From the IMG/VR virus record IMGVR_UViG_2541047801_000004, positions 1 to 41,611 of that record: a stretch of DNA of 41,611 nt; one strand, written 5' to 3'. Origin of the DNA: a virus (lineage: Duplodnaviria > Heunggongvirae > Uroviricota > Caudoviricetes). The notes below the pieces were generated by a model. It saw nothing but the letters and a program-made list of their open reading frames with translations. It did not search any database and was not told the DNA's origin. Position numbers and translations under genes: made by a program. Positions 5,538-40,360 of this stretch are shown piece by piece (position 1 is the stretch's first letter; the number at the start of each line of letters is the position of its first letter).

Positions 5538-8173
5538 TTATTTTGATTCCAATAGTTCGAGTCGCTCTTCAATACGATCGCATCGGCGGCGCTGATATGC
5601 AGCCTCAAGCCAAGCGCACTGGTCAGGCCGTATGCCCCATGAACTACCCGCTTTTTTAACCAGCCTCTGTTCTCCGGTGTCATATTCGACGGTGACCAAC
5701 TCACCAGACGCATCGGTAATCTCTTTAGTCGCGATTACCGGCTCAAAAATATCGTCCCACTCGTCATAGCAAAGAAGGCCAAATCTGGTTCCATCAATTC
5801 CGTGCGCCAGGAATACATCTCTTACCTGCTGAGCCATGACGCCAAAATGCCATCTGGCACCATCGCCCTTCATGGATATAGCGTCGAGCCATCGATACGC
5901 CACAACAGAAATATCGCCCCAGGCATCAAGAATGCTGTCTCTATCAGAAGAAAGCATTTCACTTAAATCTGATATTGCCTCGGGATTGGTTTTCAGCGTG
6001 GCATCTGATGAAACGGTTGGGGCATTTGCAAAGTAGGCGTCTTTAATACGAAACGATGCCTGACCAAAATTATAGGTATTGTCAGCAAACGGGCGAAGAC
6101 CTGTATTATAAAACCGCCAGCGTATGGTTCCTCCCAATGCTGTCGGGTCGCTGTTGCATGCAATATCCACCGTGGTGGCAGACCTAAACACAGAAGAACT
6201 ACCGCCCAATACCAAGCTATTTGCGCTAGCTGTAGCCTGCTGGTCAAGGACCAATATTTTCTGAGAGTTTGTAGTTGCACCGGCATATGATGATGCAGTG
6301 ATGCGGTTTAATTGGTTTGTATCAGGATCTGCGTTTTGCTGAATGGTTAAGTTAGATGCCCACTGTGCCGGTCGCTGGCGCACAAATACAAAGTCACCAG
6401 AAGGATTAGTTGCAACCAAATAACTAATGCCACTATCAGATGAATAATAGTTGACTATAAAAGTCTGATTATTCGCATTCAGTATTTCAACATATGTGCT
6501 GGAAGGGATTGCCACGCCAGATATATCAGCAATGCTGACAGTCCCTGTGTAAAAATTAAATGCCTTCTGACTCATCTCCTGCATATAGCGAAGAATTTCA
6601 GTCATGTTAGTGAACAACGTACCATCTACAGGGTTAACAATCCCCTTCGCACTACGGGGATATACCCCAATGCTCGCGTGATCGATATCAAATCCGCGGT
6701 AAAGCCTGGATGCAGGTGTAAAATCGATAGCATCTTTATCAGTGGAGAAATCTTCGAAAATAACCAAACCTGAATTGTAAGGTTCAGAGCCAGTTCTTTC
6801 CTGATGAATGTAAAGTGAATAAATGGATTTTCCATCCTGAGAAACACAAACGCCTTCATTTTCTATGCGAGTGACGTTCAATCCTGCGGCTTTCATTAAA
6901 TCCATCATGGCCTGAGGATGAAGCATTGATTCAGTTCGCTTTGTACCGTCAGGGTTAAAAACTTTGCTGCCCTGATATTCGTTATATCCTGCGCTTCCTG
7001 CCCCATCAGCTATGAAGCCGCCATAGCCGCAGACAAAGTAGTTATCACCTACCGCAATACCCTGACGCTTGTTGAAATAAGGCGCATAAGGTGAGGTGCT
7101 TTTAGTTACATACCCAACATCATGTAACGGCAGCGTTATAGTTGACAGGCGATTGAAACCACTGTCGAACACTGCAAGTACAGTTCTTGTGATTTTCTGT
7201 CCTACTTCTGGCGCATTCTGCTCAACGAGCCATATACCTCTTCTGTAGCTGAACTGGTTGAATAATCCAACATCATGGTTTTGTACAAGAGGCAGATTGC
7301 TTCCGTATAATGCCCCCTCCATATTAAATTCACGCAGTATTCCGTTTGTGTGACCAACAAACATTTTTTTTGGGCCATAGTCTGACGTAACCACGATTCC
7401 TTCAGCAGCGAAGCCTGGGCCGCCAGCCTGAACATAGAAATAACCTTGATAAATACCAGATATGTTAAATACTGCGACGACATTATTCGTCTGTTTAGGC
7501 TCAAATGGATAAGTGATGTATATCAAATCTTCGCTAACGCAGAATCCTTGAGGATACATATAAGTTGCTGACGGGTTAGCAGCCATAATCGCATCATATT
7601 CAGGAAAAAGAAGCGGCATCGTAGCTACAATCTTTCTTTGGTGATTTGTAAAAATATCGTTTTTAGCGCTGTTAGGTGTAGGCGTTACACCTCCAGTAAA
7701 AAGATCATCAACATAACCTTTATTGACAGCATCGTTTCTGTCAGTGGCATTTGCTAGATTTGATATCTTATTATTTTTTGCATCATAATAGTTAGCCAGA
7801 ATGCTTGGTTTTATAAGTGCTAACCTCATCCATGAAAAACACTTTTGAATAAGCATTGTCAGTTTATCGAACGCGTCTTCATGTACCTCAGCGAAGAACT
7901 TACCCTGATTACGCAAATCAGTATCCTGCGTAACCGGGAGCTCTCGTGATATAGAAATATGATAACCGTTAGCCAACGCCTTCGACAGAATTACATTACC
8001 GCCATTATATCCTCCAGCATTGGTTACTGTGTAGTCAGTATCCAGAACCAATTCTGTTACGTTCCCGTTCAGGTCAGACACCTGAACAACCAGGTCCGGA
8101 AGGTATACGGAAATGATGTCGTAGCTCCGTTACCAGTGTATTCGTTGTGGTCAACTTCGGTTGAGACCGTCAT
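5538..8173 (-). CDS. tailspike/tail fibre protein with C-terminal intramolecular-chaperone (peptidase S74-like) domain; 5' end frameshifted (possible pseudogene or assembly error)
   Basis: ATG 8173 with GGAG RBS encodes MTVSTEVDHNEYTGNGATTSFPYTF, then hits TGA at 8069-8071; the 847-aa body (DLVVQVSDLNGNVTEL...) is in another frame open from 8129; the frames meet at 8097-8099. Confidence 0.7.
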
Positions 8174-8244
8174 GTTAAATCTCCAGATAGTCGCAGCACC
8201 CGTTGCGCCGCATATCTGGTTATTCTATTACCTGAAAAACCACA

Positions 8245-8263
8245 TATGGATAGATAATCCATA
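8245..8263. promoter_or_regulatory. 19-bp perfect dyad TATGGAT-N5-ATCCATA in the tailspike/antirepressor divergent control region
   Basis: Perfect 7-5-7 inverted repeat, 72-90 bp upstream of the tailspike ATG. Confidence 0.35.
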
Positions 8264-8276
8264 AATACGAAAAGAT

Positions 8277-8293
8277 ATTACCTTTCAGGTGAT
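8277..8293. promoter_or_regulatory. operator-like 17-bp dyad (ATTACC TTTCA GGTGAT)
   Basis: Member of the recurrent ATTACC-N5-GGTAAT family. Confidence 0.45.
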
Positions 8294-8329
8294 TTGCAAA
8301 ACGTGCTGGATAGCAAACAAATTATTTGC

Positions 8330-8349
8330 TACTGTATAAATATACAGTT
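8330..8349. promoter_or_regulatory. LexA (SOS) box TACTGTATAAATATACAGTT
   Basis: CTGT-N8-ACAG with AT-rich centre, near-perfect match to the enterobacterial SOS box; 20 bp upstream of the RBS of the 8369 gene and overlapping a TATAAAT -10-like element. Confidence 0.65.
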
Positions 8350-8368
8350 ATTGCATGGAGAAGATAAG

Positions 8369-8626
8369 ATGCAGCAGTATCACTATCCACTGGAAGACGG
8401 ATTTACCGAAAGGATTCACACGCCGGGAGGCGTCAGGTCACTGGTGGAGGGATCGCACTTGATGAAATTACTCCGGGATCTCGATAAGGATGGATTTAAT
8501 GTCGATGGCCCACTTGCCGAACTGACTGCACTGATTAACTACGTCACCAGCTCACAGATGTCTATGCGGGATCTGCAAACACATCTCGACTATTGTGCCG
8601 AACAATTACGAAAACAAACCCGGTAA
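8369..8626 (+). CDS. small antirepressor-like protein (paralogue of the Ant C-terminal domain), putatively SOS-inducible
   Basis: 85 aa; GGAG RBS; clear similarity to the C-terminus of the Ant at 9772-10458 (H-P-GV...L-E-S-LM-LL...DG...AELT...RD-QTH); LexA box immediately upstream. Confidence 0.6.
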   Translation: MQQYHYPLEDGFTERIHTPGGVRSLVEGSHLMKLLRDLDKDGFNVDGPLAELTALINYVTSSQMSMRDLQTHLDYCAEQLRKQTR

Positions 8627-8632
8627 ATTTAA

Positions 8633-8650
8633 AGGCCGCAAGAGCGGCCT
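8633..8650. terminator. hairpin AGGCCGC-AAGA-GCGGCCT between convergent genes
   Basis: 7-bp GC-rich stem; same stem sequence as the hairpin at 10483-10500; flanking T/A runs are weak. Confidence 0.4.
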
Positions 8651-9377
8651 ATCGTTTCGCTTTGTGCTCATCCCAGCACGTTTTGCACCATGCCATTAAG
8701 CCGTCCGCATTTTGATTATTAGGGTAAAAGCTGGTTCGTTTTCTGCGGACATTACAAATTGGGCACCACTTCATATGGCGTGTATTCTTTGGGCCATCGA
8801 GACACCTTGCACACCATTTAGTCAATCCATCTGGATTTTTTGACGATTTCCTGAATTTTTCATATGGAAGGTTTATTCTGCATCGCAAGCACTGCTTGCT
8901 ACCACTTGAAACTCTGTTAGCTGATTCTTCTTTTGGCGGCGATACAGAAGGTATTCTTGCTGGCTCTGATATTGCCTGAGGTGCTTTTTTAGATGACTGA
9001 GACGATATGTCATCACCAGGGAATCTTCCATGATATGCCGGACGCGTTGACACTCCAGGTGGAATCTCAGCTGTAAACGGCTTTGGCTGAATCAGTTGCC
9101 TCTCTTTTGCTAACTCCTGCTGTTTATAATATGTCTGGATTACCGCACTATCATAAGCAGGAGGTGCGGAAATATTAGGCGCATTACCTCCAGTTTTTTG
9201 AAACTGAGTAGAGGTGTGTTCTATCACCTGTGTACGATTAATCGTTATCTCCCCATCTTCGGTCTTTATCGTTTTGTTATGATTAACGACCGTACGATCA
9301 GAGATCTTAGTCTTGTTCTGGTTGATAACGTAAATAATCACCGCAACCACACCAACAACTATCCAGAAAACTTCCAT
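8649..9377 (-). CDS. membrane-anchored Cys-rich (zinc-ribbon-like) protein, possible lysogenic-conversion or exclusion function
   Basis: N-terminal TM helix; C-terminal repeated CxxC motifs (CLRC...NPDGLTKWCARC...KWCPIC...NADGLMAWCKTC); GAGGAAAA RBS; operator-like dyad directly upstream. Confidence 0.55.
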   Translation of the reverse strand: MEVFWIVVGVVAVIIYVINQNKTKISDRTVVNHNKTIKTEDGEITINRTQVIEHTSTQFQKTGGNAPNISAPPAYDSAVIQTYYKQQELAKERQLIQPKPFTAEIPPGVSTRPAYHGRFPGDDISSQSSKKAPQAISEPARIPSVSPPKEESANRVSSGSKQCLRCRINLPYEKFRKSSKNPDGLTKWCARCLDGPKNTRHMKWCPICNVRRKRTSFYPNNQNADGLMAWCKTCWDEHKAKR

Positions 9378-9396
9378 TGCTTTTCCTCACAATAAC

Positions 9397-9413
9397 ATTA
9401 CCTTAAAGGTAAT
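9397..9413. promoter_or_regulatory. operator-like 17-bp dyad (ATTACC TTAAA GGTAAT, perfect half-sites)
   Basis: Best copy of the family; lies between the divergent 9377 gene and the ant leader. Confidence 0.5.
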
Positions 9414-9489
9414 ATCTTGCTTTCAGGTGATCAAGCGTTAAACGCAATCAACCAAATACGGTTGATTTCAATGTTTCTTCGCGCTTATC

Positions 9490-9506
9490 ATTACCTTTAC
9501 GGTAAA
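9490..9506. promoter_or_regulatory. operator-like 17-bp dyad (ATTACC TTTAC GGTAAA) in the ant leader
   Basis: Family member about 90 bp downstream of the 9397 site. Confidence 0.4.
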
Positions 9507-9771
9507 TTTACATCGCACTCCTCTTGTGCCATAGTAATCGGGCACTGGCAAAATCCAGTGCCGGGATTGGCGTCCCGGATTACTACAGAGGCACATATGC
9601 CGCATAAGCGGTTTTTTTATGTGTAAAGCGCACCTATTCTATGGTGGGCTGTGTGGGGGCACCGAAAGGTGCGCCGGGTCCTTTGTAGCCGGTTACGCCA
9701 ACCCTGCACAGTTCACCACCAACCGATTGGCGTCGGTAGTGGTGATTAACCTAACTACAAAGGTGATCACT

Positions 9772-10458
9772 ATGACTGCTAACGTAACCCCATCTGTTTT
9801 TCATTTTGAATCAGAAGCAACCATTCGAGCCATTGTTATTGATGGAAATCCTTGGTTTGTTGCCAAAGACGTTATTAAAGCTCTTCAACTGACAAACCCC
9901 ACTATGTCAATAAAATCTCTTGATGATGATGAAAGGGCTAAATTTAACTTAGGCCGTCAAGGCGAAACCAATATTATCAACGAGTCAGGCCTCTACACAC
10001 TGATCCTCCGCTGCCGCGATGCGGTGACACCAGGCACTATCCCATACCGCTTTCGTAAATGGGTTACAGGTGAGGTTCTTCCTCAGATCCGCCGCACCGG
10101 AAGTTACATTAAAAACTCGCTCCCGCAAGAAGAACGCATAAAGATGGTTGCCGACCAGGTAGCCAACGCCACAGCATCAGCAGTGATGCAGGCAATGAAG
10201 ATAGAGAACAAAACCTACAGCGCCCCACTAAAGCCCGGCTACCGCAGTCTGATTCACTCGCCGTCTGGTGTTCTCGGCCTGACGGAGAACTCACTGCTGA
10301 TGAATCTGCTGAACCAGTTACAGGAAGACGGGCACGACGTATCGGGCGCGGCGGCGGAGTTGACCACCATGTTCTGCTACATCGTCGGTGTGAACAAATG
10401 CCTGCGTGATATCCAGACGCACGCGGAGTACATCAACGACAAAGCAGGGTTCTTCTGA
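9772..10458 (+). CDS. ant: antirepressor (Bro-N domain, Ant-like)
   Basis: ATG 9772 with AAAGGTGA RBS; Bro-N-like N-terminal domain (IRAIVIDGNPWFVAKDV...INESGLYTLILRCR...FRKWVTGEVLPQIRRTGSY); long structured 5' leader. Confidence 0.75.
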   Translation: MTANVTPSVFHFESEATIRAIVIDGNPWFVAKDVIKALQLTNPTMSIKSLDDDERAKFNLGRQGETNIINESGLYTLILRCRDAVTPGTIPYRFRKWVTGEVLPQIRRTGSYIKNSLPQEERIKMVADQVANATASAVMQAMKIENKTYSAPLKPGYRSLIHSPSGVLGLTENSLLMNLLNQLQEDGHDVSGAAAELTTMFCYIVGVNKCLRDIQTHAEYINDKAGFF

Positions 10459-10475
10459 CGGGCGGTGGCATTCGT

Positions 10476-10500
10476 TAAAACAAGGCCGCTTTTGCGGCCT
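10476..10500 (-). terminator. rho-independent terminator after the lipoprotein gene (end of the upstream late transcript)
   Basis: Stem AGGCCGC/GCGGCCT with 4-nt loop, followed on the minus strand by TGTTTTAA. Confidence 0.5.
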
Positions 10501-10512
10501 GTGACATGTCAC
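10501..10512. repeat. 12-bp perfect palindrome GTGACATGTCAC (copy 1 of 3)
   Basis: Exact palindrome abutting the terminator hairpin between convergent ant and lipoprotein genes. Confidence 0.8.
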
Positions 10513-10515
10513 GAC

Positions 10516-10929
10516 TTATAAAGATGACTGATATTTTACAACTCTGTTCATGGCATCTTTTTTCACCGAGCTGATATCAGTTCTTATTTTGGCTTCGTCA
10601 TTACTGTTTATCATGCTATTAACTTTTTGCACTGACATGCCGTTTCTTTCAGCCATTGCACATACAGCAGCATCGTATGAAGAACTCGCTGCGATGGATA
10701 TCACCTTGTTACACTCAAACACAGCACCTTCAGCAATATCAGATGCCGATGATGCTGGCTTGGTATAAGTCTTGACGTAGTGATCAATACAACTATCCTT
10801 CGCCGTCTTGGCAAGAGAAAAATCCATTTTAACTTTGTCGCAATATGCCTTATCAACACCGTCATAAACATCATAGGATGTCGAGCAAGCGGATATCAAA
10901 AATACCGATAACAGCAATAATTCCTTCAT
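10516..10929 (-). CDS. prophage lipoprotein (possible exclusion/moron function)
   Basis: Signal peptide with lipobox LISAC; 137 aa; sits between ejection-protein genes and the ant module. Confidence 0.6.
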   Translation of the reverse strand: MKELLLLSVFLISACSTSYDVYDGVDKAYCDKVKMDFSLAKTAKDSCIDHYVKTYTKPASSASDIAEGAVFECNKVISIAASSSYDAAVCAMAERNGMSVQKVNSMINSNDEAKIRTDISSVKKDAMNRVVKYQSSL

Positions 10930-22980: not shown

Positions 22981-23031
22981 CTTCTTTCTCCATTAGTGGG
23001 TCTGTTACGACCCACAGGTTAATAACAGGCG

Positions 23032-30275: not shown

Positions 30276-30315
30276 GTATTCAAAACCCATCAAATTCATC
30301 ATGCATAATCTACTC

Positions 30316-30327
30316 GTGACATGTCAC
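30316..30327. repeat. 12-bp perfect palindrome GTGACATGTCAC (copy 3 of 3)
   Basis: Exact palindrome overlapping the stop codon of the 30324-30671 gene. Confidence 0.8.
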
Positions 30328-30671
30328 ACTATTAATTTAGTTTCATGCCAGCCTTTAGTCACCCAGCATTGCGAGTCACCATTACACGGGCATGAATTAA
30401 CGGGAACTTTCTCGCCGCACTTACCGCAACGTTTTCTGCTAATCGATTTTATACGCCCGCGCACGCGTGCATCATCCTGGCGGATCAGTAACGCTATATA
30501 CTCCCCAAATTCGTAAGGCGCACGCCCGGGGCGACGCGTGGCACAGTTACGCTCCAGCATTTCCTGCTCCTGCTTATCCAGCACCAGTTCAATTTTGCGC
30601 TCACCGGCGGCGGACTGCCGAGCGCGCTGCGCGGCTTTGCGTTCTGCGGGGGATTTAGCCACGAATCGCAC
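30324..30671 (-). CDS. hypothetical Cys-rich protein (possible regulator)
   Basis: GTG start; C-terminal CGKCG...CPCNG cysteine cluster; last gene before the late operon. Confidence 0.45.
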   Translation of the reverse strand: MRFVAKSPAERKAAQRARQSAAGERKIELVLDKQEQEMLERNCATRRPGRAPYEFGEYIALLIRQDDARVRGRIKSISRKRCGKCGEKVPVNSCPCNGDSQCWVTKGWHETKLIV

Positions 30672-30777
30672 TCCACGCCAGATTGATTAATGACTCCCAG
30701 GTAATATAAACCCGGATACCAGCAGCCAGGCCGAAACCAATCACCATGGCATAAAGCAGAGCGTTGCACTTGTTCAT
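30655..30777 (-). CDS. small hydrophobic peptide (40 aa)
   Basis: ATG 30777 overlaps the upstream stop (TGATG) with GGAGGTGA RBS; sequence MNKCNALLYAMVIGFGLAAGIRVYITWESLINLAWSAIRG; below the ORF-track size cutoff. Confidence 0.4.
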   Translation of the reverse strand: MNKCNALLYAMVIGFGLAAGIRVYITWESLINLAWSAIRG

Positions 30778-31424
30778 CACTTCACCTCCTGCGGCGGTTC
30801 TGGTAGAGGCATCCAGTGGGTTACACCGTCAATTGGTTCATCGTCGTCGTACTCCAATGCGGCTATATAGAACCCGTCACGACGAGAATAAGAAATCCCG
30901 GACGTTACAATGCCATCCGAAACAACAATAATGTCACCCGTTTCTTCCGGCATTCGCTCACTACAGCTTATCCAACCATCCGGAATTACCGGAGAGTTGG
31001 TTGACGTTTCCGAGATTTTCCGAAAATTATTGGTTGACGAATCCTTGTTTTCCCGAAAGCTTCCTGACTGAAGCATAGCTTCGCGGCAATCGTTCCATCC
31101 TTCAGCATAATCACTATACGCAAGAGGCCAACCTCTTATGTATTCACGCGGCAACTTATCAGGCACTACCAGCGCTGGCGGCGCTGCGTAAAGTGGTTTG
31201 GGTGATATTTCCGCGCGTTTTGCGTATGCTTCAACTGTGTCAGGATTAAACAGGATTATGTTTTCGCCGCATTCCCACGCTATCGGTTCCGCTTCCAGCG
31301 ATGCCAGCGCAATTCGTGCCAGTTCTTCCGCTTCTTCTGCTGGCAGTACAACGTTGCTACCAGGTCCGTATGTTTCGCGCCACTGCTTGATTGTCAGCAG
31401 TCGCTCTTTGGTAATAGTGGTCAT
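30777..31424 (-). CDS. phage protein with C-terminal DUF551-like domain
   Basis: 215 aa; C-terminal motif WISCSERMPEE...VTHWMPLPEPP. Confidence 0.55.
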   Translation of the reverse strand: MTTITKERLLTIKQWRETYGPGSNVVLPAEEAEELARIALASLEAEPIAWECGENIILFNPDTVEAYAKRAEISPKPLYAAPPALVVPDKLPREYIRGWPLAYSDYAEGWNDCREAMLQSGSFRENKDSSTNNFRKISETSTNSPVIPDGWISCSERMPEETGDIIVVSDGIVTSGISYSRRDGFYIAALEYDDDEPIDGVTHWMPLPEPPQEVK

Positions 31425-31936
31425 GCCGCGTTTCCTTCTTTCTTATTAACAATTACACCGTCATATATTTCATTAAGGTGCCCTCTCAACTCCATTCGCC
31501 TTAATGCAGATAACATGTAATCGCATTCAACCTGCTTATTTCCAGTAAATGGCTTATCGTCAGGATTACCCCAACAGCAATTACCCTTGGGCCACCCATG
31601 TACTTTCCGTACTCTTCCGTTAACAACGTGAAGTAATCCCCAGCCAGGTGGTAAATCCTCAATTGAAATAATTCCCGGCTCACTAATAAAGAATCGCCAG
31701 TCGCCCATTCCAAGAGACGGATTTTTACGAAAACGCTTTTTTCTATCTGCTAACAAGTCAGCACGAGAACACTTCGCCTCTATCAGGCATGATGCTGAAT
31801 TTCTGAATCCCATAGCATCTGGCTGTTCTCCGGTACTGGTTACAGCTATAAAGCGGTCATGAAAACAAACCTTGAACCCGTTGCGCTTAAGGAACTTGTA
31901 CGCAATCTGACAGAGTTCGCGGTGTGTTAACGCCAT
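31421..31936 (-). CDS. hypothetical protein, possible PD-(D/E)xK nuclease fold
   Basis: ATG 31936 one nt after the upstream stop; CLIEAKCSRADL resembles an E-x-K motif; weak. Confidence 0.4.
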   Translation of the reverse strand: MALTHRELCQIAYKFLKRNGFKVCFHDRFIAVTSTGEQPDAMGFRNSASCLIEAKCSRADLLADRKKRFRKNPSLGMGDWRFFISEPGIISIEDLPPGWGLLHVVNGRVRKVHGWPKGNCCWGNPDDKPFTGNKQVECDYMLSALRRMELRGHLNEIYDGVIVNKKEGNAA

Positions 31937-31937
31937 A

Positions 31938-32474
31938 TCACTCTCCTTTGATGCGAATGCCATCGACGCGTGGCACATTAACTTCCACGATGCGCACAGT
32001 TGGTTTGTACATCTCAATCGCAGTCAGCCAGTCAGCTCCTGTCATGCGCTTTTCCGCATCGCCATTAGTCCACTGAACCGGTACACCAATAGCCTTCATC
32101 GCAATTTCTATTTCCCCGGCAATGGCGCTTTTTCCGCAACCAGTAAAACCAGATACAACGACAAGAACTTCACCTTTGGCTGGTTTTATTTCCCGCGCTT
32201 CCAGCTCCTTAACGCGTTCCTCCAGTTCGTAGACTCTGCATTGCTCTTTATCATCAATCAGATATAACCCAAGACATTCGCTTTCTACCCAACCGCCGAA
32301 ATCATGATCGTAACGCTCACATGAAAACTCACTGTCACCGTCCTTTGTTGGAATGGTGTAACTGTCTAATGGGCCACCGTACGTCGGTACATTTCCCAAT
32401 TCCGGATGCTCAATCCACATGAAAAATGCACGTCCGGTTATAGGGCAAATATCTGGTCGCCATTGGTTACTCAC
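31938..32474 (-). CDS. hypothetical protein with Walker A-like motif
   Basis: 178 aa; SGFTGCGKS matches GxxxxGKS. Confidence 0.45.
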   Translation of the reverse strand: MSNQWRPDICPITGRAFFMWIEHPELGNVPTYGGPLDSYTIPTKDGDSEFSCERYDHDFGGWVESECLGLYLIDDKEQCRVYELEERVKELEAREIKPAKGEVLVVVSGFTGCGKSAIAGEIEIAMKAIGVPVQWTNGDAEKRMTGADWLTAIEMYKPTVRIVEVNVPRVDGIRIKGE

Positions 32475-33010
32475 TGATTGCCTCCTTTGCGAAGCTGGGC
32501 GGCGAACTCGTCACATATGTGCGTCAAAGAGCAAAGTTTGATTGATGGATGTTCGCGCATCATCTCTACCCCCTGCGCCCGTACTTCAGCCAGAAAAGCA
32601 TCGGTGGCTGGGGTGTCTGATTGCAGAGACTTTGCGCGATAGTCATTCCACCCTCTTGCATACATGGGATTAACTTGCACTCCATCTTTTACGCAATATG
32701 CCTGACCTCCACGGTTGATAACCTTGATTTCGTCCATAGCGCCATACTTCAGCCCCGCATTCTCCGCCGCCAACGCCGAAAACTTCTCGTGTGCCAACTT
32801 AACAGCCGCATCAGCCTGCTTAATTGACTCAATCGCTTTCTGCTGGTCTTCGGCCAGCGCATTAGCACGCACCAGTTGCACTTCCAGTTGCGTTGCCAAA
32901 TCGCTGATCAGCTTTGCCACACTGCGCATATCAACGGCACCACATTCTGCTTTCAGTTCCGAAGCCATCTCATGCCCGGCGGCAACTAACCCTTTGATAT
33001 TACTTTCCAT
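32471..33010 (-). CDS. hypothetical protein
   Basis: 179-aa ORF in the nin-like region. Confidence 0.5.
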   Translation of the reverse strand: MESNIKGLVAAGHEMASELKAECGAVDMRSVAKLISDLATQLEVQLVRANALAEDQQKAIESIKQADAAVKLAHEKFSALAAENAGLKYGAMDEIKVINRGGQAYCVKDGVQVNPMYARGWNDYRAKSLQSDTPATDAFLAEVRAQGVEMMREHPSIKLCSLTHICDEFAAQLRKGGNQ

Positions 33011-33071
33011 CTTTACCCTCGCTTATCCACATAACTTATTGATTACATTGATAACTAAAAAGATCGTCGAT

Positions 33072-33419
33072 TCAGAACTCTTCGATGTTCCAGCCGCCAC
33101 CTGCTTTCTTTGGTTTAACCGTTACCCCGATGATTCGGAACGGATACTGATCTGCGGCTACTTTGGTTTTCACCCTGGCGTCGTCGGTCCAGAATCCCCC
33201 TTTCACTTCGTGCAGTTCCATCTCTCCGGTGGCGAGCATCACTGCGAAATCTGGCGTATAGAACGTGTTGTCAGCTAACCGCAGCTTGATACCCTCGAAT
33301 CGATACCAGGCGATTTCCCCTGCACGTTTACGCTGCTCAAGGTGCTGGCAATACGCAGATTCTGTTTTGTTCATCTGGCCTGTTTTGAGTCGACCAAGAG
33401 CCTGTATCTGTTTTCTCAT
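33072..33419 (-). CDS. DUF1064-like phage protein
   Basis: 115 aa; pattern GEI...E...L...YTPDF.V...E.KG typical of this family (from memory). Confidence 0.45.
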   Translation of the reverse strand: MRKQIQALGRLKTGQMNKTESAYCQHLEQRKRAGEIAWYRFEGIKLRLADNTFYTPDFAVMLATGEMELHEVKGGFWTDDARVKTKVAADQYPFRIIGVTVKPKKAGGGWNIEEF

Positions 33420-33421
33420 GA

Positions 33422-33438
33422 TTTACCCATAAGGTAAT
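33422..33438. promoter_or_regulatory. operator-like 17-bp dyad (TTTACC CATAA GGTAAT)
   Basis: Family member between P and the DUF1064-like gene. Confidence 0.4.
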
Positions 33439-33483
33439 TAAAAACCACATAAGACACAAAATCAATAGAGTTAAGAATATTTT

Positions 33484-33500
33484 GTTACCTATAAGGTAAT
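33484..33500. promoter_or_regulatory. operator-like 17-bp dyad (GTTACC TATAA GGTAAT)
   Basis: Family member 45 bp from the previous site. Confidence 0.4.
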
Positions 33501-33536
33501 TATTGAGGCGTAAAAAAATGCGCTATCGCGCTGGTA

Positions 33537-34337
33537 TTACTTGATAAATCCTGCCGACTTTCCTCGCCTGTATTCCTCCATCAGCCACTGCGCCGGTGTT
33601 ATTCCCCCCAGGGTGGCGGCGTTAGGCATGCACCCGAAACTTCGCCCTGGTGGATGGTAAACGTCTCTCCCTGTGTCCGGAGGCGTACTCATGGGTTCTG
33701 GCTTTGCCTGTATGCTGATCACCGGATCCGGTATCTGCTGTCCGGAAGCCACCTTTTTCGCCCAATCATCGAGCAGCCTGCGCGCGTGTTTCTCAACCTC
33801 AATCTCGCTAAGCTGGCGCTGATACATTGCACGGCGGGTATCACATACGACCCAGTACATAACCGGATGTCGCCACGGGAATCTTTCGGGACCACCAGGA
33901 TATAAACTTTTTTCCTTGCTGTACCGGTGAAACTCCGCCATCACATCGTCAATGGTGACGCCAAGAACCATCTTACTGTCTTTACACCACTTGATGAATT
34001 GCCCTGGCGACGGCCAGAACGGAGATTCACTGGCGCGGGCGTGGCGCATACCAGCAGAAACCTGTTCACGGGTTCGGATCCCCCCTTCGGCAAACGCAGC
34101 AATCCACTGCTGTTTTGCAGCGACTTCCTGCTCTGGCGTCTTCAGGTTGGTTACCACTGCCGCCGGAAACAGTTGTTTCAGCTGTTTGAAAAGGGCATCA
34201 ACAAGCCTCTCTGCTGACATGTTCACCACATTGTCATTGTTGACGTACTGATGCTCATAACCTGACATGCGAGAAAGGGCTTCTCCGTCACGGTTTTGTA
34301 TTGCGGTAAAAACGTTGTTCACAAGAAATCCTCCCAT
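33537..34337 (-). CDS. replication protein P-like (DnaB helicase loader)
   Basis: Clear similarity to lambda P as recalled (QWIAAFAEGGIRTREQVSAGMRHARASESPFWPSPGQFIKWC; FPWRHPVMYWVV); start may be 34337 or 34268. Confidence 0.75.
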   Translation of the reverse strand: MGGFLVNNVFTAIQNRDGEALSRMSGYEHQYVNNDNVVNMSAERLVDALFKQLKQLFPAAVVTNLKTPEQEVAAKQQWIAAFAEGGIRTREQVSAGMRHARASESPFWPSPGQFIKWCKDSKMVLGVTIDDVMAEFHRYSKEKSLYPGGPERFPWRHPVMYWVVCDTRRAMYQRQLSEIEVEKHARRLLDDWAKKVASGQQIPDPVISIQAKPEPMSTPPDTGRDVYHPPGRSFGCMPNAATLGGITPAQWLMEEYRRGKSAGFIK

Positions 34338-35116
34338 GCTTCAGGGCTGTTCCAGTGCGGAACGTTGTTATCAGGTAATGTTGATTGCTTCTGTCTGCTA
34401 ATCTGCAGCCGCCTTGCCAGCTTTTGCTCCCACTGTGCCTGATGGTATGCCTTACCCTCAGCCATCCAGTAAATTCTGAACTCTGCAAGTTCCTGTGCCG
34501 TTGGCAGACTGTCCAGGTAGATCCCCTGCAATGAGCTTTTCCGAAGAAAGTCATCTGATGGCTGCCATTGTTCATGCATGACAAATTTGCCTAATTGCCC
34601 TGGCCCACCAGGAGGAACAAAGTTATTCATCACGGCGTTGTTTGCGCCGGGGTCATGAGGCACAGAATCCCCGGTTTTTGTCCTGCTCTCCCTCTCTTGG
34701 TTAAATGACTGGTTATATGACTGGTTCTGGATCCCGTTTTTGGGATCATTCAACATCCCGTTTTTGGGATCATTCAACATCCCGTTTTTGGGTATATTCC
34801 CGTTTTCGGGTTCATTACACCCTTCTAGGTTGCCTTTAATGTTCCCTTTTTTGGTTATATTAAGAGAGAAAACCCGCACTCTTTTCGTCGCTCCCTTTCT
34901 CTCTCCGGTATCTGAAATAAGCCCCATTTTCATGAGCGATATAAGCCCGGCCTGTACGGTTTTTTTATTCAGGCAAGTGTCTTTAACGAGGCGTTCTATG
35001 CTTGGGTAGCAGAGGTTATATTCATCGGCTCTGTCAGCCATCGAGAGCAGTATGAGCTTTAATGACGAGCTACCTGGATCTGTCTCCCAGGCCCAATCTG
35101 TTGCATGTCTGCTCAT
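34319..35116 (-). CDS. replication initiator O-like protein
   Basis: N-terminal HTH-like DNA-binding region; internal repeats NGMLNDPKNGMLNDPKNG coded by the iteron DNA; upstream of P. Confidence 0.65.
   Translation of the reverse strand: MSRHATDWAWETDPGSSSLKLILLSMADRADEYNLCYPSIERLVKDTCLNKKTVQAGLISLMKMGLISDTGERKGATKRVRVFSLNITKKGNIKGNLEGCNEPENGNIPKNGMLNDPKNGMLNDPKNGIQNQSYNQSFNQERESRTKTGDSVPHDPGANNAVMNNFVPPGGPGQLGKFVMHEQWQPSDDFLRKSSLQGIYLDSLPTAQELAEFRIYWMAEGKAYHQAQWEQKLARRLQISRQKQSTLPDNNVPHWNSPEAWEDFL
34731..34820. repeat. replication-origin iterons (about four copies of a 24-bp unit) inside the O gene
   Basis: ATCCCGTTTTTGGGATCATTCAAC is repeated twice exactly and then as degenerate copies; each unit carries an internal dyad (ATCCC...GGGAT); an AT-rich stretch lies nearby. 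Confidence 0.65.
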
Positions 35117-35131
35117 GATTAATCTCCGCTA

Positions 35132-35332
35132 TCAGCTTGAATGTTGTGGGGAGGAATTAATCATGATCTGCTTAATCTCTGCCCTGATGCGACGGTTTGA
35201 TTCCATGGTGCACTCAACACAGTGTCCGTTGTAAACCCAGCGTTCACTGTCATGTCCGTGCTTACATGGTTTTCCGGTGTAGTAGCGTTTAAGTCCGCGC
35301 TTTGCGGCATCAATACGTGTAATGATTTCCAT
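35132..35332 (-). CDS. small zinc-ribbon protein in the cII position
   Basis: ATG 35332; 66 aa with CKHGH...CVEC; lies between cro-like and O. Confidence 0.45.
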   Translation of the reverse strand: MEIITRIDAAKRGLKRYYTGKPCKHGHDSERWVYNGHCVECTMESNRRIRAEIKQIMINSSPQHSS

Positions 35333-35411
35333 GGTAAGCCCTGTTATTAGTATTGGGATTACGGTTATTTTGTGCTGACACAAAAAAAAGATCAACCAGA
35401 TTTGGTTTTTT

Positions 35412-35428
35412 ATTACCTTTTAGGTGCG
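35412..35428. promoter_or_regulatory. operator-like 17-bp dyad (ATTACC TTTTA GGTGCG), weak right half
   Basis: Family member between the cro-like and zinc-ribbon genes. Confidence 0.3.
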
Positions 35429-35482
35429 AATAGATATGAAAAGACCGCCGGATGGCGGTCTACAGAGGGTTGTGGCTGGATA

Positions 35483-35713
35483 TCATGAGTAGAAGAAGTA
35501 TGCCAGTTCTGCTTTTGAGCGCAGCCATTGTCTTGTTTTACAGGCTTTAAAAAGCCCATTCATCAATACCTTACCTGGCATTTTGCGCTTACCTGTTAAG
35601 TGAGTCTGGATATAGTGACTCGTCGTTCCGGCTTCCTGTGCGAAGGCTTCACGCTCATCCGGAGTAAGTGCAAGCCAGTGCTTTTTGAAATCGAAATGTC
35701 CGTTATCGCTCAT
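35483..35713 (-). CDS. Cro/CII-like HTH regulator
   Basis: 76 aa; HTH-like segment LTPDEREAFAQEAGTTSHYIQTHLTG; divergent from the repressor across the operator cluster. Confidence 0.55.
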   Translation of the reverse strand: MSDNGHFDFKKHWLALTPDEREAFAQEAGTTSHYIQTHLTGKRKMPGKVLMNGLFKACKTRQWLRSKAELAYFFYS

Positions 35714-35748
35714 AGCTATTGCCTGATATTTATTTCAGATAATAAATA

Positions 35749-35765
35749 TTCACCCATAAGGTAAC
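35749..35765. promoter_or_regulatory. operator-like 17-bp dyad (TTCACC CATAA GGTAAC), immunity region site A
   Basis: One of three sites between the divergent cro-like and repressor genes. Confidence 0.45.
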
Positions 35766-35779
35766 AAAAATCAAGGATA

Positions 35780-35796
35780 GTTACCTATGGGGTGCA
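35780..35796. promoter_or_regulatory. operator-like 17-bp dyad (GTTACC TATGG GGTGCA), immunity region site B
   Basis: Directly abuts site C. Confidence 0.4.
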
Positions 35797-35813
35797 TTTA
35801 CCTGTTGGGTAAT
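35797..35813. promoter_or_regulatory. operator-like 17-bp dyad (TTTACC TGTTG GGTAAT), immunity region site C
   Basis: Closest of the three to the repressor start. Confidence 0.45.
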
Positions 35814-35867
35814 ATTGCTTTAAATTGAATCATCTACTGATTCATATATGAGGCGATTTTCCAGAAA

Positions 35868-36452
35868 ATGAAAAGTATCCAGGACGTCCGCAGGCAAAAT
35901 CTCAACGACTTGATCGACCGTGAATTCAATGGTGTTCAGACGCGGATGGCAGAAAAACTTGGAACTCAGGCAAATCTGGTAAACCGCTGGGCTCTTGGCA
36001 AGAAGGTTATCGGCGACCAGGTTGCGCGAAAAATTGAAGCTGCCGCCAATAAACCCCGTAACTGGCTTGATATCGATCGCTCGCTTTCTCAGGAAGGTTT
36101 TCAGCCTGTCGGCCCAAGCGACATTGGTCAGCTGGCAGCTCACAACCTGGAACGCTGGATGAGTGAAAGCCGCGACCTTTCAACTCAGGGAAAACTTCAC
36201 CGCGCATCCGGCGTCGCCCAGGTGACAATAAGCCGCCTGTTAAACAATGAGGTCAGCGTTTCCATTTCCACCCTGGAGAATGTTGCATCTGCATTCGGGC
36301 GTCACGGATATGAACTACTGATTCATCCACATGACCCTGCAACTATCAACTATGACCGCTCGCGCTACGCATTGTTACCTGAAACAGAGAAGGCAAAGAT
36401 CGAAAGTTACATTGAATTTGTCATCAACCAGAACGAAAAAAACAAACAATAA
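35868..36452 (+). CDS. prophage repressor, dual HTH (XRE-like), no peptidase S24 autocleavage domain
   Basis: 194 aa; two HTH-like segments (GVQTRMAEKLGTQANLVNRWALG and ASGVAQVTISRLLNNEVSVSISTL); divergent from cro-like gene; weak RBS; no Ala-Gly/Ser-Lys LexA-like cleavage module. Confidence 0.6.
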   Translation: MKSIQDVRRQNLNDLIDREFNGVQTRMAEKLGTQANLVNRWALGKKVIGDQVARKIEAAANKPRNWLDIDRSLSQEGFQPVGPSDIGQLAAHNLERWMSESRDLSTQGKLHRASGVAQVTISRLLNNEVSVSISTLENVASAFGRHGYELLIHPHDPATINYDRSRYALLPETEKAKIESYIEFVINQNEKNKQ

Positions 36453-36474
36453 AATCATATTTTTCAGTAAGTAA

Positions 36475-36496
36475 GCCGCCTTATGGCGGCTTTTTT
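36475..36496 (+). terminator. rho-independent terminator of the repressor gene
   Basis: Stem GCCGCC/GGCGGC with loop TTAT, followed by TTTTTT. Confidence 0.6.
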
Positions 36497-36508
36497 ATTG
36501 CCTGTTCG

Positions 36509-36525
36509 ATTACCTAACGGGTAAT
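36509..36525. promoter_or_regulatory. operator-like 17-bp dyad (ATTACC TAACG GGTAAT)
   Basis: Upstream flank of the PL-like promoter. Confidence 0.45.
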
Positions 36526-36543
36526 TTTTTTAACTCATATCTA

Positions 36544-36570
36544 TTGACATCAAACCAGATACGCATAATT
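36544..36570 (+). promoter_or_regulatory. PL-like early-left promoter (-35 TTGACA, -10 ATAATT) bracketed by operator dyads
   Basis: TTGACA at 36544-36549 and ATAATT at 36565-36570 (15-bp spacer, suboptimal); operator sites at 36509 and 36571. Confidence 0.4.
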
Positions 36571-36587
36571 ATTACCTCAACGGTAAC
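36571..36587. promoter_or_regulatory. operator-like 17-bp dyad (ATTACC TCAAC GGTAAC)
   Basis: Overlaps the predicted transcription start of the PL-like promoter. Confidence 0.45.
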
Positions 36588-36605
36588 AGACCGAGGTAAC
36601 AAGTT

Positions 36606-36761
36606 ATGCAGTGGAAAATCATCAACGGTTGGTACTGCGTTACTGCATGCGGATTCATGAGCTGGAAGTTCCGCACCTTACAGGAAGGCATTAAGTGGGC
36701 TTTCGTCAGCAAAGAAGCTCTCGATGTAGCCAACGATAACGAGATATGGGAGGGCTGATAA
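36606..36761 (+). CDS. small ORF (51 aa), first gene of the early-left operon
   Basis: GAGGT RBS; stop overlaps the next start; below the ORF-track size cutoff. Confidence 0.3.
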
Positions 36762-37060
36762 TGAACGTTAATCAGCAGAAAAATCTTCAAAAAATCATGC
36801 TGGCATTCGACAAGGACTACCGCCTGTCAGAACAGCTATATGACCGACAAGTTGAACTGATTGAGAGCATCCGACTTCATCAACTGTCCTCAACTTTCGA
36901 CGTTGTAACAGGCAAAGGCGTTCGTCAAGAAGTACTGGAGGCTGCTAAAGACAGCCCTGAGTTCGAAGAACTGATGGATGCCTATCGGCGAGAGGCAATG
37001 GCAATTATCGCCCGCTGGGATCTGGCGGATCAGCTTGATGGACAGAGGGACGCGGCATGA
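36761..37060 (+). CDS. hypothetical protein
   Basis: ATG 36761 (MNVNQQKN...); 99 aa; upstream of the exonuclease with ATGA overlap. Confidence 0.45.
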   Translation: MNVNQQKNLQKIMLAFDKDYRLSEQLYDRQVELIESIRLHQLSSTFDVVTGKGVRQEVLEAAKDSPEFEELMDAYRREAMAIIARWDLADQLDGQRDAA

Positions 37061-38816: not shown

Positions 38817-38865
38817 CCACCACCGCGGCGCCACGCGCGCCGCACTGCAACCAAGAGAGGTATTT

Positions 38866-40357: not shown

Positions 40358-40360
40358 ACG

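What the first reader, a model, noticed from the sequence alone, without database searches (positions are those of the whole stretch)
8277..8626. Near-consensus LexA box drives a small paralogue of the Ant C-terminal domain: candidate SOS-controlled antirepressor
TACTGTATAAATATACAGTT (8330-8349) is an almost ideal CTGT-N8-ACAG SOS box overlapping a -10-like TATAAAT, 20 bp before the RBS of an 85-aa ORF. That ORF aligns with the C-terminal roughly 70 aa of the full-length Bro-N antirepressor at 9772-10458. The putative prophage repressor (35868-36452) has no LexA-like autocleavage domain, so induction by RecA-stimulated self-cleavage is unlikely. This fits the known LexA-controlled antirepressor logic (phage 186 Tum, Gifsy/Fels-type phages), but here the SOS-regulated factor appears to be a stand-alone copy of the Ant C-terminal domain, a split arrangement I do not recognise as described. 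An operator-like dyad (8277-8293) sits just upstream, suggesting dual control.
Basis: partly seen in the sequence, partly recalled or inferred. Interest (0 to 1): 0.78.

Follow-up and report, generated by a model that had tools for sequence, protein, structure and literature searches.

The report
Known SOS-controlled small phage antirepressor
The LexA box and the 85-aa gene are real, but they are the E. coli copy of a phage induction switch already solved in Salmonella phage SPC32H: DNA damage removes LexA, a small antirepressor is made, and it pulls the uncleavable phage repressor off the DNA.

Summary
TACTGTATAAATATACAGTT (8330-8349) is the only LexA box in the 41.6-kb window. It scores above every E. 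coli SOS box in my recalled training set and sits 19 nt before the ATG of an 85-aa ORF (8369-8626). That ORF is 41% identical to the C-terminus of the Bro-N protein at 9772-10458.

It is not new. The window is an epsilon15-like (Uetakevirus) E. coli prophage. The 85-aa protein is 87% identical to Ant of Salmonella phage SPC32H (PDB 5D50 chain E). The repressor at 35868-36452 is the orthologue of SPC32H Rep (PDB 5D50 chain A): two HTH domains and no S24 peptidase. Gene order and the LexA box are conserved. The SPC32N variant carries its base change in the same box.

The stand-alone protein is the conserved core gene of the genus. The Bro-N fusion belongs to a variably present cassette with its own control: isrK and C4 antisense RNAs plus Rep-type operators.

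The dyad at 8277-8293 is one of about 11 Rep-operator sites (ATTACC-N5-GGTAAT). Whether it regulates ant or the divergent tailspike gene is unresolved.

Only two points may be undescribed: two antirepressors sharing one domain with different wiring, and the missing annotation of the small one in E. coli.

The parts
8277..8293 (.). Rep-operator-type dyad ATTACCTttcAGGTGAT between the divergent tailspike and ant genes
   Evidence: It is a member of the ATTACC-N5-GGTAAT family: 13 sites in the window against 1.07 expected and 18 against 0.97 in SPC32H. It is conserved in all 9 aligned phages. The aligned site in epsilon15 is annotated 'protein_bind: repressor, lysogeny'.
8307..8312 (+). Candidate -35 (TGGATA) of the ant promoter (inferred)
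   Evidence: T, G, G, A and the final A are invariant in all 9 phages. It lies 17 nt upstream of TACTGT. The layout matches the annotated p95 promoter of phage 186 tum, whose -10 is the TACTGT arm of its LexA box. A strict sigma-70 scan found no promoter here.
8330..8349 (.). LexA (SOS) box TACTGTATAAATATACAGTT, overlapping the candidate -10 (TACTGT 8330-8335 or TATAAA 8335-8340)
   Evidence: Searches show it is unique in the window and scores 26.9 bits. It is conserved in position across Uetakeviruses. SPC32N differs from SPC32H by C to A in the right-arm CAG of the aligned box.
8357..8363 (+). Ribosome-binding site GGAGAAG
   Evidence: Read from the sequence. It is conserved in 7 of the 9 aligned phages; the two Klebsiella phages diverge here.
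8369..8626 (+). ant: 85-aa small antirepressor, orthologue of SPC32H Ant
   Evidence: 86.7% identical to the SPC32H and SPC32N 'ant: anti-repressor protein'. PDB 5D50_E matches at E = 1.4e-46 over residues 2-84. phrog_450 matches at E = 7e-48. Gene order tailspike(-)/ant(+) is the same.
8633..8650 (.). G+C-rich hairpin (GGCCGC-aaga-GCGGCC) after ant, shared with the convergent 242-aa gene; terminator-like
   Evidence: MFE of the 46-nt stretch 8620-8665 -14.8 kcal/mol, z = -1.9. The equivalent position in epsilon15 is annotated as a rho-independent terminator.
35868..36452 (+). rep: prophage repressor with two HTH domains and no S24 domain, orthologue of SPC32H Rep; the presumed target of Ant
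   Evidence: Pfam finds HTH families only. PDB 5D50_A matches at E = 4e-42 over the full length. It is 42% identical to SPC32H Rep and 100% identical to the phage ZX5 ORF21 repressor.
35797..35813 (.). Rep operator in the rep/cro-like intergenic region
36509..36587 (.). Pair of Rep operators (36509-36525 perfect, 36571-36587 with 1 mismatch) downstream of rep at the early-left operon
   Evidence: Equivalent sites exist in SPC32H and epsilon15.
9397..9506 (.). Two Rep-type operators (9397-9413 perfect, 9490-9506 with 1 mismatch) upstream of the isrK/C4/Bro-N ant cassette and of the divergent 242-aa gene
   Evidence: Promoter-like sites at 9462-9491 and 9507-9535 flank the second operator.
9529..9723 (+). 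isrK-like RNA (9542-9618), c4-a1b1 targets (9529-9581) and C4 antisense RNA (9637-9723): P1 immI / Gifsy-1 isrK-type translational control of the large Ant
   Evidence: Rfam scores: isrK 76.8 bits (gathering 50), C4 79.5 bits (gathering 45), and c4-a1b1 45.1 bits, which is just below its gathering score of 46.7. Reading the sequence by eye, the C4 loops are complementary to a1 9567-9573, b1 9583-9591, a2 9727-9733 and b2 9755-9763. The last overlaps the SD AAGGTG.
9772..10458 (+). Second antirepressor: Bro-N domain plus a C-terminal Ant-type domain (residues ~145-228). An in-frame 51-codon leader starts at 9619.
   Evidence: Bro-N matches at E = 5e-20. The C-terminus matches 5D50_E at E = 1e-13 and phrog_450 at E = 5e-36. 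It is 82% identical to ZX5 ORF4, with the C-terminal ~145 aa nearly identical. The leader is shown.

Best explanation
The locus is the SOS-sensing arm of the lysis-lysogeny switch of an epsilon15-like (Uetakevirus) E. coli prophage. It is orthologous to the Ant/Rep system of Salmonella phage SPC32H.

In the lysogen, host LexA sits on the box at 8330-8349. This box overlaps the -10/+1 region of the ant promoter and keeps ant silent. DNA damage leads to RecA-stimulated LexA self-cleavage, and ant (8369-8626) is transcribed. The 85-aa Ant, a tetramer in SPC32H, binds the C-terminal domains of Rep (35868-36452). This breaks the DNA-binding Rep tetramer into dimers and releases it from the ATTACC-N5-GGTAAT operators that guard the lytic operons. 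Rep itself is not cleaved.

Shown here: orthology of both proteins, conserved gene order, the conserved and unique LexA box, absence of an S24 domain, and the operator family.

Taken from the SPC32H literature and not tested here: LexA binding, SOS induction and Ant-Rep binding.

The Bro-N protein at 9772-10458 is a second antirepressor with a differently wired control. It carries the same C-terminal domain.
For: - The ORF is 86.7% identical to the annotated SPC32H/SPC32N 'ant: anti-repressor protein' (H39/H40) and matches PDB 5D50_E 'Anti-repressor protein' at E = 1.4e-46.
- Rep matches PDB 5D50_A 'Repressor' at E = 4e-42 over its full length and is 42% identical to SPC32H Rep. It has HTH domains only.
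- Gene order is the same: tailspike(-), ant(+), then the large virion-protein gene(-).
- The LexA box is aligned and conserved in the seven Escherichia, Salmonella and Enterobacter phages. The two Klebsiella phages keep only the right arm (left arm ATGT instead of CTGT). SPC32N has the C to A change in the CAG arm.
- The box is the only SOS box in the window, at 26.9 bits.
- Secondary literature states that SPC32H Ant is made after LexA cleavage and inhibits the repressor by protein-protein contact (PMC7380047). It also states that tetrameric Ant binds two Rep dimers and breaks the Rep tetramer (PMC9638917).
- The operator motif is shared with SPC32H.
- The same ant-Bro-N stretch (window 8170-10520) is present at >=80% coverage in 113 of 5,426 complete E. 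coli genomes.
Against: - No experiment exists for this E. coli orthologue.
- Rep here is only 42% identical to SPC32H Rep while Ant is 87% identical, so Ant-Rep binding in this pair is inferred and not shown.
- The primary papers (Kim & Ryu 2013; Kim et al. 2016) were not available to read. Their details rest on secondary citations, on GenBank and PDB annotation, and on my own recollection of the abstracts.
- No promoter passes a strict sigma-70 consensus scan. The -35/-10 assignment is by conservation and by analogy with phage 186 p95.
- The two Klebsiella relatives have ATGT instead of CTGT in the left arm of the box.
Confidence: 0.9

Rival explanations
1. One reading: the 85-aa gene is a recently split-off, stand-alone copy of the C-terminal domain of the full-length Bro-N Ant. 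This would be a previously undescribed 'split antirepressor' arrangement.
For: The two proteins share a domain: 41% identity, E = 2e-16. Invariant residues run across the stand-alone and fused forms. In the representative library the domain also occurs fused to other N-terminal modules that I judged by eye to be AntA-like and Rha-like.
Against: The stand-alone form is the conserved one. It is present at the same position in all Uetakeviruses examined, including SPC32H, epsilon15, phiV10 and BUCT554, which have only one copy of the domain ('places_in_record'). The Bro-N cassette is variably present and brings its own RNAs. At 41% identity the two copies are old paralogues and not a recent split. 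The stand-alone protein is already published and crystallised.
Confidence: 0.05
2. Dual control: Rep bound at the 8277-8293 dyad represses, or activates, the ant promoter in addition to LexA.
For: The dyad is a genuine member of the Rep-operator family. It is conserved at fixed spacing from the LexA box in 7 of the 9 phages; the two Klebsiella phages carry small indels between them. It is annotated as a repressor site in epsilon15.
Against: Its centre (8285) lies about 57 bp upstream of the inferred ant transcription start and 14 bp upstream of the candidate -35, so it does not occlude the core promoter. It lies equally between ant and the divergent tailspike gene. The candidate tailspike promoter TCCATA-17-TAGAAT (8250-8222, minus strand) has a Rep half-site abutting its -10. 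SPC32N keeps the dyad intact yet differs from SPC32H here only in the LexA box. By my recollection of the Kim & Ryu abstract, SPC32N makes Ant constitutively. That argues Rep alone cannot silence ant, although it is not conclusive, because Ant inactivates Rep.
Confidence: 0.3
3. The LexA-like palindrome is a chance AT-rich dyad, or the operator of a phage protein, and ant is not SOS-regulated.
For: LexA binding was not tested here. The two Klebsiella relatives have a degenerate left arm.
Against: The box scores 26.9 bits, above every site of my recalled E. coli training set, and no shuffle came near it. It is conserved while the flanks diverge. The natural SPC32N mutation maps to the CAG arm. 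The phage 186 tum promoter has a nearly identical box, TACTGTATGTTTATACAGTA, annotated as a LexA site.
Confidence: 0.02

Closest known systems
Ant/Rep antirepression system of Salmonella phage SPC32H (Kim & Ryu 2013, J Virol 87:11775; Kim et al. 2016, PNAS 113:E2480; PDB 5D50, 5D4Z)
   Same: Same phage genus (Uetakevirus) and same gene position, divergent from the tailspike gene. Ant is 87% identical. Rep is homologous over its full length, with two HTH domains and no S24 domain. The LexA box is at the aligned position. The ATTACC-N5-GGTAAT operator motif is the same.
   Different: The host is E. coli. Rep is only 42% identical (100% identical to the phiV10/ZX5-type Rep). The central spacer of the LexA box differs (ATAAATAT against ATGTTTAT). 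Three extra genes, including a second, Bro-N-fused antirepressor with isrK/C4 RNAs, are inserted next to ant; SPC32H has none of them.
Phage 186 Tum, Gifsy GfoA/GftA/GfhA and N15 AntC (LexA-controlled antirepressors)
   Same: The logic is the same: an uncleavable repressor and a small antirepressor gene outside the immunity region, under a LexA box that overlaps the promoter (PMC3121763; 186 annotation). The 186 box is nearly identical in sequence.
   Different: There is no detectable sequence relationship to Tum (BLASTP E = 0.056). tblastn of Ant against 50,697 phage records hit only Uetakevirus-like phages and prophages. The Gifsy repressor-antirepressor complex is reported as an A2B2 heterotetramer, whereas in SPC32H a tetrameric Ant binds two Rep dimers.
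P1/P7 immI (c4-icd-ant) and Gifsy-1 isrK-orf45-anrP (applies to the neighbouring Bro-N Ant only)
   Same: isrK and C4 RNA matches lie above the Rfam gathering scores, directly upstream of a Bro-N antirepressor gene. Complementary a1/b1 and a2/b2 targets are present, and b2 covers the ribosome-binding site. There is a short upstream reading frame like orf45.
   Different: The C-terminal effector domain is the SPC32H Ant-type domain. No icd gene is present. The upstream frame is fused in frame to ant. Rep-type operators sit upstream.
Lambda CI, P22 C2 and LexA-type autocleaving repressors
   Same: An HTH repressor maintains lysogeny, and induction is by the SOS response.
   Different: There is no Peptidase_S24 domain. 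The repressor is inactivated by binding and not by cleavage, by orthology to SPC32H Rep.

Membership tests
SPC32H-type Ant/Rep antirepression system | Small (~86 aa) Ant protein homologous to SPC32H Ant | tested here: met
   86.7% identity over 83 aa. PDB 5D50_E matches at E = 1.4e-46.
SPC32H-type Ant/Rep antirepression system | LexA box overlapping the ant promoter | tested here: met
   The box at 8330-8349 aligns with the SPC32H box. The SPC32N mutation falls inside it. It is unique in the window and near consensus. Overlap with the promoter is inferred from conserved TGGATA-17-TACTGT and from phage 186 p95.
SPC32H-type Ant/Rep antirepression system | Rep homologous to SPC32H Rep: N- and C-terminal HTH-type domains and no autocleavage domain | tested here: met
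   5D50_A matches at E = 4e-42 over residues 1-190. Identity is 42%. Pfam finds HTH only and no S24.
SPC32H-type Ant/Rep antirepression system | ant located outside the immunity region, divergent from the tailspike gene | tested here: met
SPC32H-type Ant/Rep antirepression system | LexA binds the box and ant is SOS-induced | not testable with these tools
   Needs EMSA and reporter assays.
SPC32H-type Ant/Rep antirepression system | Ant binds Rep and dissociates the Rep tetramer from DNA | not testable with these tools
   Known for SPC32H. Here Rep is only 42% identical, so cognate binding is inferred.
Phage 186 Tum / DinI-fusion antirepressors | Sequence homology to Tum | tested here: not met
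   BLASTP E = 0.056, with no meaningful alignment.
Gifsy GfoA/GftA-type antirepressors | Sequence homology to GfoA, GftA or FsoA | not tested
   These sequences were not fetched. tblastn of Ant against the phage collection hit only Uetakevirus-like records. I did not verify that Gifsy records are in that collection.
Lambda CI / LexA S24 autocleaving repressors (for 35868-36452) | C-terminal Peptidase_S24 domain with Ser/Lys dyad | tested here: not met
   No S24 hit at E <= 0.1. The whole length aligns to the non-cleavable SPC32H Rep.
P1 immI / isrK-anrP cassette (for 9529-10458) | C4-family antisense RNA and isrK/a1b1 element upstream of a Bro-N antirepressor gene, with targets at its ribosome-binding site | tested here: met
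   Rfam C4 79.5 bits and isrK 76.8 bits, both above gathering scores. Complementarity was read from the sequence. Bro-N matches at E = 5e-20. The same cassette is present in TL-2011b, Tyrion and Kp4865-1.

The most novel reading that the evidence does not exclude
The prophage, with its ZX5, TL-2011b, Tyrion and Kp4865-1 relatives, carries two antirepressors built on one Rep-binding domain but wired to different inputs. The core small Ant answers to LexA and the SOS response. An accessory Bro-N::Ant fusion sits behind Rep-type operators and an isrK/C4 antisense-RNA gate. If both act on the same Rep, this would be a two-input induction switch with a Rep-controlled positive-feedback arm.

In the literature I could read, this combination is not described. 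The ZX5 study treats the Bro-N protein as 'the' antirepressor and never mentions the small gene or LexA.
Probability: 0.3. Interest if true: 0.4.

Novelty: already known. Interest (0 to 1): 0.15.

Why it matters
As posed, the finding rediscovers a published and crystallised system, so it adds no new biology. It has three modest practical values.

- **Annotation gap.** The small ant is labelled 'hypothetical protein' in every E. coli phage and RefSeq record I looked at. Neither Pfam nor NCBIfam has a model for the domain. Induction logic is therefore easily misassigned to the Bro-N protein, as in the ZX5 paper.
- **One Ant type, two Rep types.** Ant proteins that are 83-87% identical are paired with Rep proteins only 42% identical. 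This bears on antirepressor cross-talk between heteroimmune prophages.
- **A testable circuit.** A LexA-wired Ant and a C4/isrK-wired Ant with the same effector domain coexist in one prophage. This small circuit-design question can be tested directly.

Tried and rejected
- **Primary papers not held.** I could not read Kim & Ryu 2013 (DOI and PMC3807360), Kim et al. 2016 (PMC4983836) or Kropinski 2007 (PMC2698709). I relied on secondary citations, on GenBank and PDB annotation, and on memory of the abstracts.
- **Promoter scans.** A strict sigma-70 scan of 8100-9800 found no ant or tailspike promoter. A relaxed scan gave only weak candidates. The promoter assignment is therefore by conservation and by analogy with phage 186.
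- **Conserved block TGCTGGATAG (8304-8313).** I tested it as a possible dispersed motif. It gave 6 hits against 2.4 expected, which is not significant. I read it as the -35 region of the ant promoter.
- **Other CTGT-N8-ACAG matches.** The sites at 23002 and 27544 were rejected as SOS boxes. Their best PWM score is 10.5 bits, below the shuffle mean maximum.
- **Family libraries.** Pfam and NCBIfam give nothing significant for the small Ant; DUF724 scores far below its cutoff.
- **Tum homology.** Rejected.
- **110-aa TTG-started ORF (8294-8626).** Rejected in favour of the ATG at 8369, by orthology.
- **A second, S24-type repressor elsewhere.** I considered it. None is annotated in the near-identical E. 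coli P4 prophage. By eye, the translations from the window-specific segment 30300-32853 do not resemble one; no profile search was run on them.

Full report
**What the window is.** The region 8200-8700 is 95-98% identical at the DNA level to epsilon15-like podophages of E. coli, including TL-2011b, phiV10, ZX5 and phiv142-3. The stretch 8170-10520 is 100% identical to a chromosomal prophage of E. coli strains P4 and FP4. It is present at 80% coverage or more in 113 of 5,426 complete E. coli genomes. Over the whole window the P4 prophage matches at 99.9% (1-30300) and 99.3% (32853-41246), with a mosaic difference in between. The window is therefore a Uetakevirus prophage.

**The observation.**
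- TACTGTATAAATATACAGTT occupies 8330-8349, followed by GGAGAAG at 8357-8363, an ATG at 8369 and a stop codon ending at 8626.
- The box has 2 mismatches to the 20-bp LexA consensus. It is the only site in the window within 3 mismatches, and no shuffle produced any.
- A position weight matrix built from 19 E. coli SOS boxes that I recalled from memory gives it 26.9 bits. That is above every training site (maximum 26.5). The next best site in the window scores 10.5, and the mean maximum of shuffled windows is 12.2.
- Two other CTGT-N8-ACAG matches, at 23002 and 27544, are not SOS-like by that score.
- The 85-aa product aligns with residues 147-224 of the Bro-N protein at 9772-10458: 41% identity, E = 2e-16.
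- The repressor at 35868-36452 shows only HTH domains in Pfam and no Peptidase_S24.

**What it is.**
- A translated search of 50,697 phage records finds the 85-aa protein in 35 records, all Uetakevirus-like. In Salmonella phages SPC32H and SPC32N the match is 86.7% identical and the gene is annotated 'ant: anti-repressor protein'.
- The protein matches PDB 5D50 chain E, 'Anti-repressor protein', at E = 1.4e-46.
- The window's repressor matches 5D50 chain A, 'Repressor', at E = 4e-42 over its full length. It is 42% identical to SPC32H Rep.
- Gene order is the same in SPC32H, SPC32N, epsilon15, TL-2011b, Tyrion, BUCT554 and BUCT711. The tailspike gene lies on one strand and ant diverges from it; in SPC32H/N, epsilon15, Tyrion and BUCT554 the large internal-virion-protein gene follows.
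- In a nine-phage alignment of the tailspike-ant intergenic region, the LexA box is conserved in register. SPC32N differs from SPC32H by a C to A change in the right-arm CAG. From my recollection of the Kim & Ryu 2013 abstract, that single-base LexA-box mutation makes Ant constitutive and the phage unable to lysogenise.
- I could not open the primary papers. Two papers I could read summarise them. After LexA self-cleavage, an antirepressor is made that inhibits the repressor by protein-protein interaction, citing Kim and Ryu 2013 (PMC7380047). SPC32H Rep binds DNA as a tetramer, and the tetrameric Ant binds two Rep dimers and breaks the tetramer (PMC9638917).

**How it most likely works.**
- LexA occupies 8330-8349 in the lysogen.
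- The most conserved promoter-like elements are TGGATA (8307-8312; five of six positions invariant in all nine phages) and, 17 nt downstream, TACTGT (8330-8335), the left arm of the box.
- This is the layout annotated for the SOS promoter p95 of phage 186 tum. There the -10 is the TACTGT arm of an almost identical box, TACTGTATGTTTATACAGTA.
Either way the box covers the -10/+1 region. A strict consensus scan finds no promoter here, so this assignment is an inference.
- SOS induction would remove LexA. Ant would then be made, bind the Rep C-terminal domains and strip Rep from its operators.
- The steps from LexA binding onward are taken from the SPC32H system and are untested for this E. coli pair. 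The main caveat is that Rep has diverged to 42% identity while Ant is 87% identical.

**The dyad at 8277-8293.**
- ATTACCTttcAGGTGAT is one mismatch from ATTACC-N5-GGTAAT.
- That motif occurs 13 times in the window at up to 2 mismatches, against 1.07 expected. It occurs 18 times in SPC32H against 0.97 expected.
- About 11 of the window's sites lie in intergenic positions ahead of operons. These include sites on both sides of rep (35797, 36509, 36571), ahead of the replication-distal early genes (33422, 33484), at the terminase gene (30204, 30222), before the portal operon (27014), and at 9397 and 9490.
- The epsilon15 GenBank record annotates the same sites as 'protein_bind: repressor, lysogeny', including the one aligned with 8277-8293.
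- Its target is unclear. It is centred about 57 bp upstream of the inferred ant start, outside the core promoter. It lies equally close to the divergent tailspike gene.
- The best conserved candidate for the tailspike promoter is TCCATA-17-TAGAAT on the minus strand (8250-8222), with a Rep half-site abutting its -10.
- I give 0.3 to real Rep control of ant.

**The 'split arrangement'.**
- The stand-alone protein is the conserved core gene. SPC32H, epsilon15, phiV10, BUCT554 and BUCT711 have a single copy of the domain and no Bro-N fusion ('places_in_record').
- In this window, three extra genes sit between ant and the virion-protein gene: a 242-aa gene (8649-9377, minus strand), the Bro-N gene, and a 137-aa putative lipoprotein gene (10516-10929, minus strand).
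- A scan of 1.84 billion representative proteins finds the domain as ~82-95-aa stand-alone proteins at several divergence levels. It also finds it fused to Bro-N and, judging by eye, to AntA-like and Rha-like N-terminal modules.
- Eight residues are invariant across all these forms. The Bro-N protein's C-terminus also hits 5D50_E at E = 1e-13.
- The paralogy is therefore real. It reflects a mobile repressor-binding module and not a novel split.

**The Bro-N antirepressor has its own circuit.**
- Rfam finds an isrK-like RNA (9542-9618, 76.8 bits against a gathering score of 50). It also finds a C4 antisense RNA (9637-9723, 79.5 bits against 45) immediately upstream of the gene, and the c4-a1b1 target element at 45.1 bits, just below its gathering score of 46.7.
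- Reading the sequence, the C4 loop CCUUUGUAG is complementary to CUACAAAGG at 9755-9763, which overlaps the Shine-Dalgarno AAGGTG. The segment ACGCCAA is complementary to UUGGCGU at 9727-9733. A second target pair lies in the isrK element (9567-9573 and 9583-9591).
- This is the design of P1 immI and of the Gifsy-1 isrK-orf45-anrP locus (PMC4825925). Like the Shigella case noted in that paper, the upstream short frame is fused in frame to the antirepressor (9619-9771).
- Two Rep-type operators (9397-9413 perfect, 9490-9506) precede the cassette.
- The same isrK/C4/Bro-N cassette is present in TL-2011b, Tyrion and Kp4865-1 and absent from SPC32H.
- The window's Rep is 100% identical to the ORF21 repressor of phage ZX5. 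The Bro-N protein is 82% identical to ZX5 ORF4, with only one substitution in the C-terminal ~145 residues.
- Overexpressing ZX5 ORF4 lowered lysogen counts from 10^9 to 10^6 (PMC9782041). That paper never mentions LexA, SPC32H or the small gene, which is annotated 'hypothetical protein' in its record.

**Comparison with known systems.**
- In both function and membership this is the SPC32H Ant/Rep system. Every sequence-level defining feature I could test is met.
- It works like phage 186 Tum, Gifsy GfoA/GftA and N15 AntC (PMC3121763). It is not related to Tum in sequence.
- Rep is not a lambda CI or LexA-type protein.

**Verdict.** The novelty claim is not supported. Two things remain of mild interest. 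The first is the missing annotation: neither Pfam nor NCBIfam has a model for the domain, and the gene is 'hypothetical protein' in E. coli records. The second is the apparently undescribed coexistence of a LexA-wired and an RNA/Rep-wired antirepressor sharing one effector domain.

Noticed in passing
window 9529-9723 (+): An isrK-like sRNA, the c4-a1b1 target element (just below its Rfam gathering score) and a C4 antisense RNA lie directly upstream of the Bro-N antirepressor gene. The C4 loops are complementary to its ribosome-binding site (b2 9755-9763) and to a2 9727-9733. This is a P1 immI / Gifsy-1 isrK-anrP-type cassette. It is also present in TL-2011b, Tyrion and Kp4865-1 and absent in SPC32H.
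   Followed up: yes
window 8277, 9397, 9490, 27014, 30204, 30222, 33422, 33484, 35797, 36509, 36571 (17-bp sites): A dispersed family of ATTACC-N5-GGTAAT dyads lies ahead of nearly every operon: 13 hits against 1.07 expected. The motif is shared with SPC32H (18 hits) although the two Rep proteins are only 42% identical. The sites are annotated as putative repressor sites in epsilon15. This implies that Rep directly represses many promoters and not just one early pair.
   Followed up: partly
window 8096/8097, within the tailspike gene (minus strand, ATG at 8173; main ORF 5538-8081): A 16-nt deletion relative to the otherwise 99.9% identical E. coli P4 prophage frameshifts the tailspike after codon 26 (TFR|IFKKSD... 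becomes TFRTWLFRCLT*). Either the prophage is defective for virion assembly or the source assembly has an error.
   Followed up: yes
window 9619-9771 (+): A 51-codon reading frame starts right after the isrK terminator and runs through the C4 RNA region, in frame with the Bro-N ant gene (279-aa ORF 9619-10458). It resembles the orf45 leader of Gifsy-1 anrP, which the IsrK paper notes is fused in Shigella. The true start codon of the large Ant is therefore ambiguous.
   Followed up: partly
window 8649-9377 (-): A 242-aa gene lies convergent with ant. By eye it has an N-terminal hydrophobic segment and C-terminal repeated CxxC motifs. It gives weak hits to endonuclease VII, HNH and Lar-like PHROGs and a full-length hit to phrog_6762 (unknown function). 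A perfect Rep operator lies 20 bp upstream of its start codon. It is absent from SPC32H.
   Followed up: no
window 10516-10929 (-): A 137-aa ORF whose N-terminus looks, by eye, like a lipoprotein signal (LLSVFLISAC). It is inserted between the Bro-N ant gene and the 824-aa virion-protein gene and has no family assignment. It is possibly a moron or superinfection-exclusion gene.
   Followed up: no
window 30300-32853: This segment of early/nin-like accessory genes differs from the E. coli P4 prophage, which is otherwise more than 99% identical on both sides. It looks like mosaic exchange.
   Followed up: no
window 8369-8626 and homologues: The Ant-type domain has no Pfam or NCBIfam model. PGAP and GenBank label it 'hypothetical protein' in E. 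coli genomes and phages. The published study of the close relative ZX5 overlooked it and treated only the Bro-N protein as the antirepressor.
   Followed up: yes
window 8222-8250 (minus strand): An invariant block across nine phages contains TAGAAT preceded at 17 nt by TCCATA (TTCATA in SPC32H), with a Rep half-site GGTAAT abutting the -10. It is a candidate tailspike/lysis-operon promoter.
   Followed up: partly
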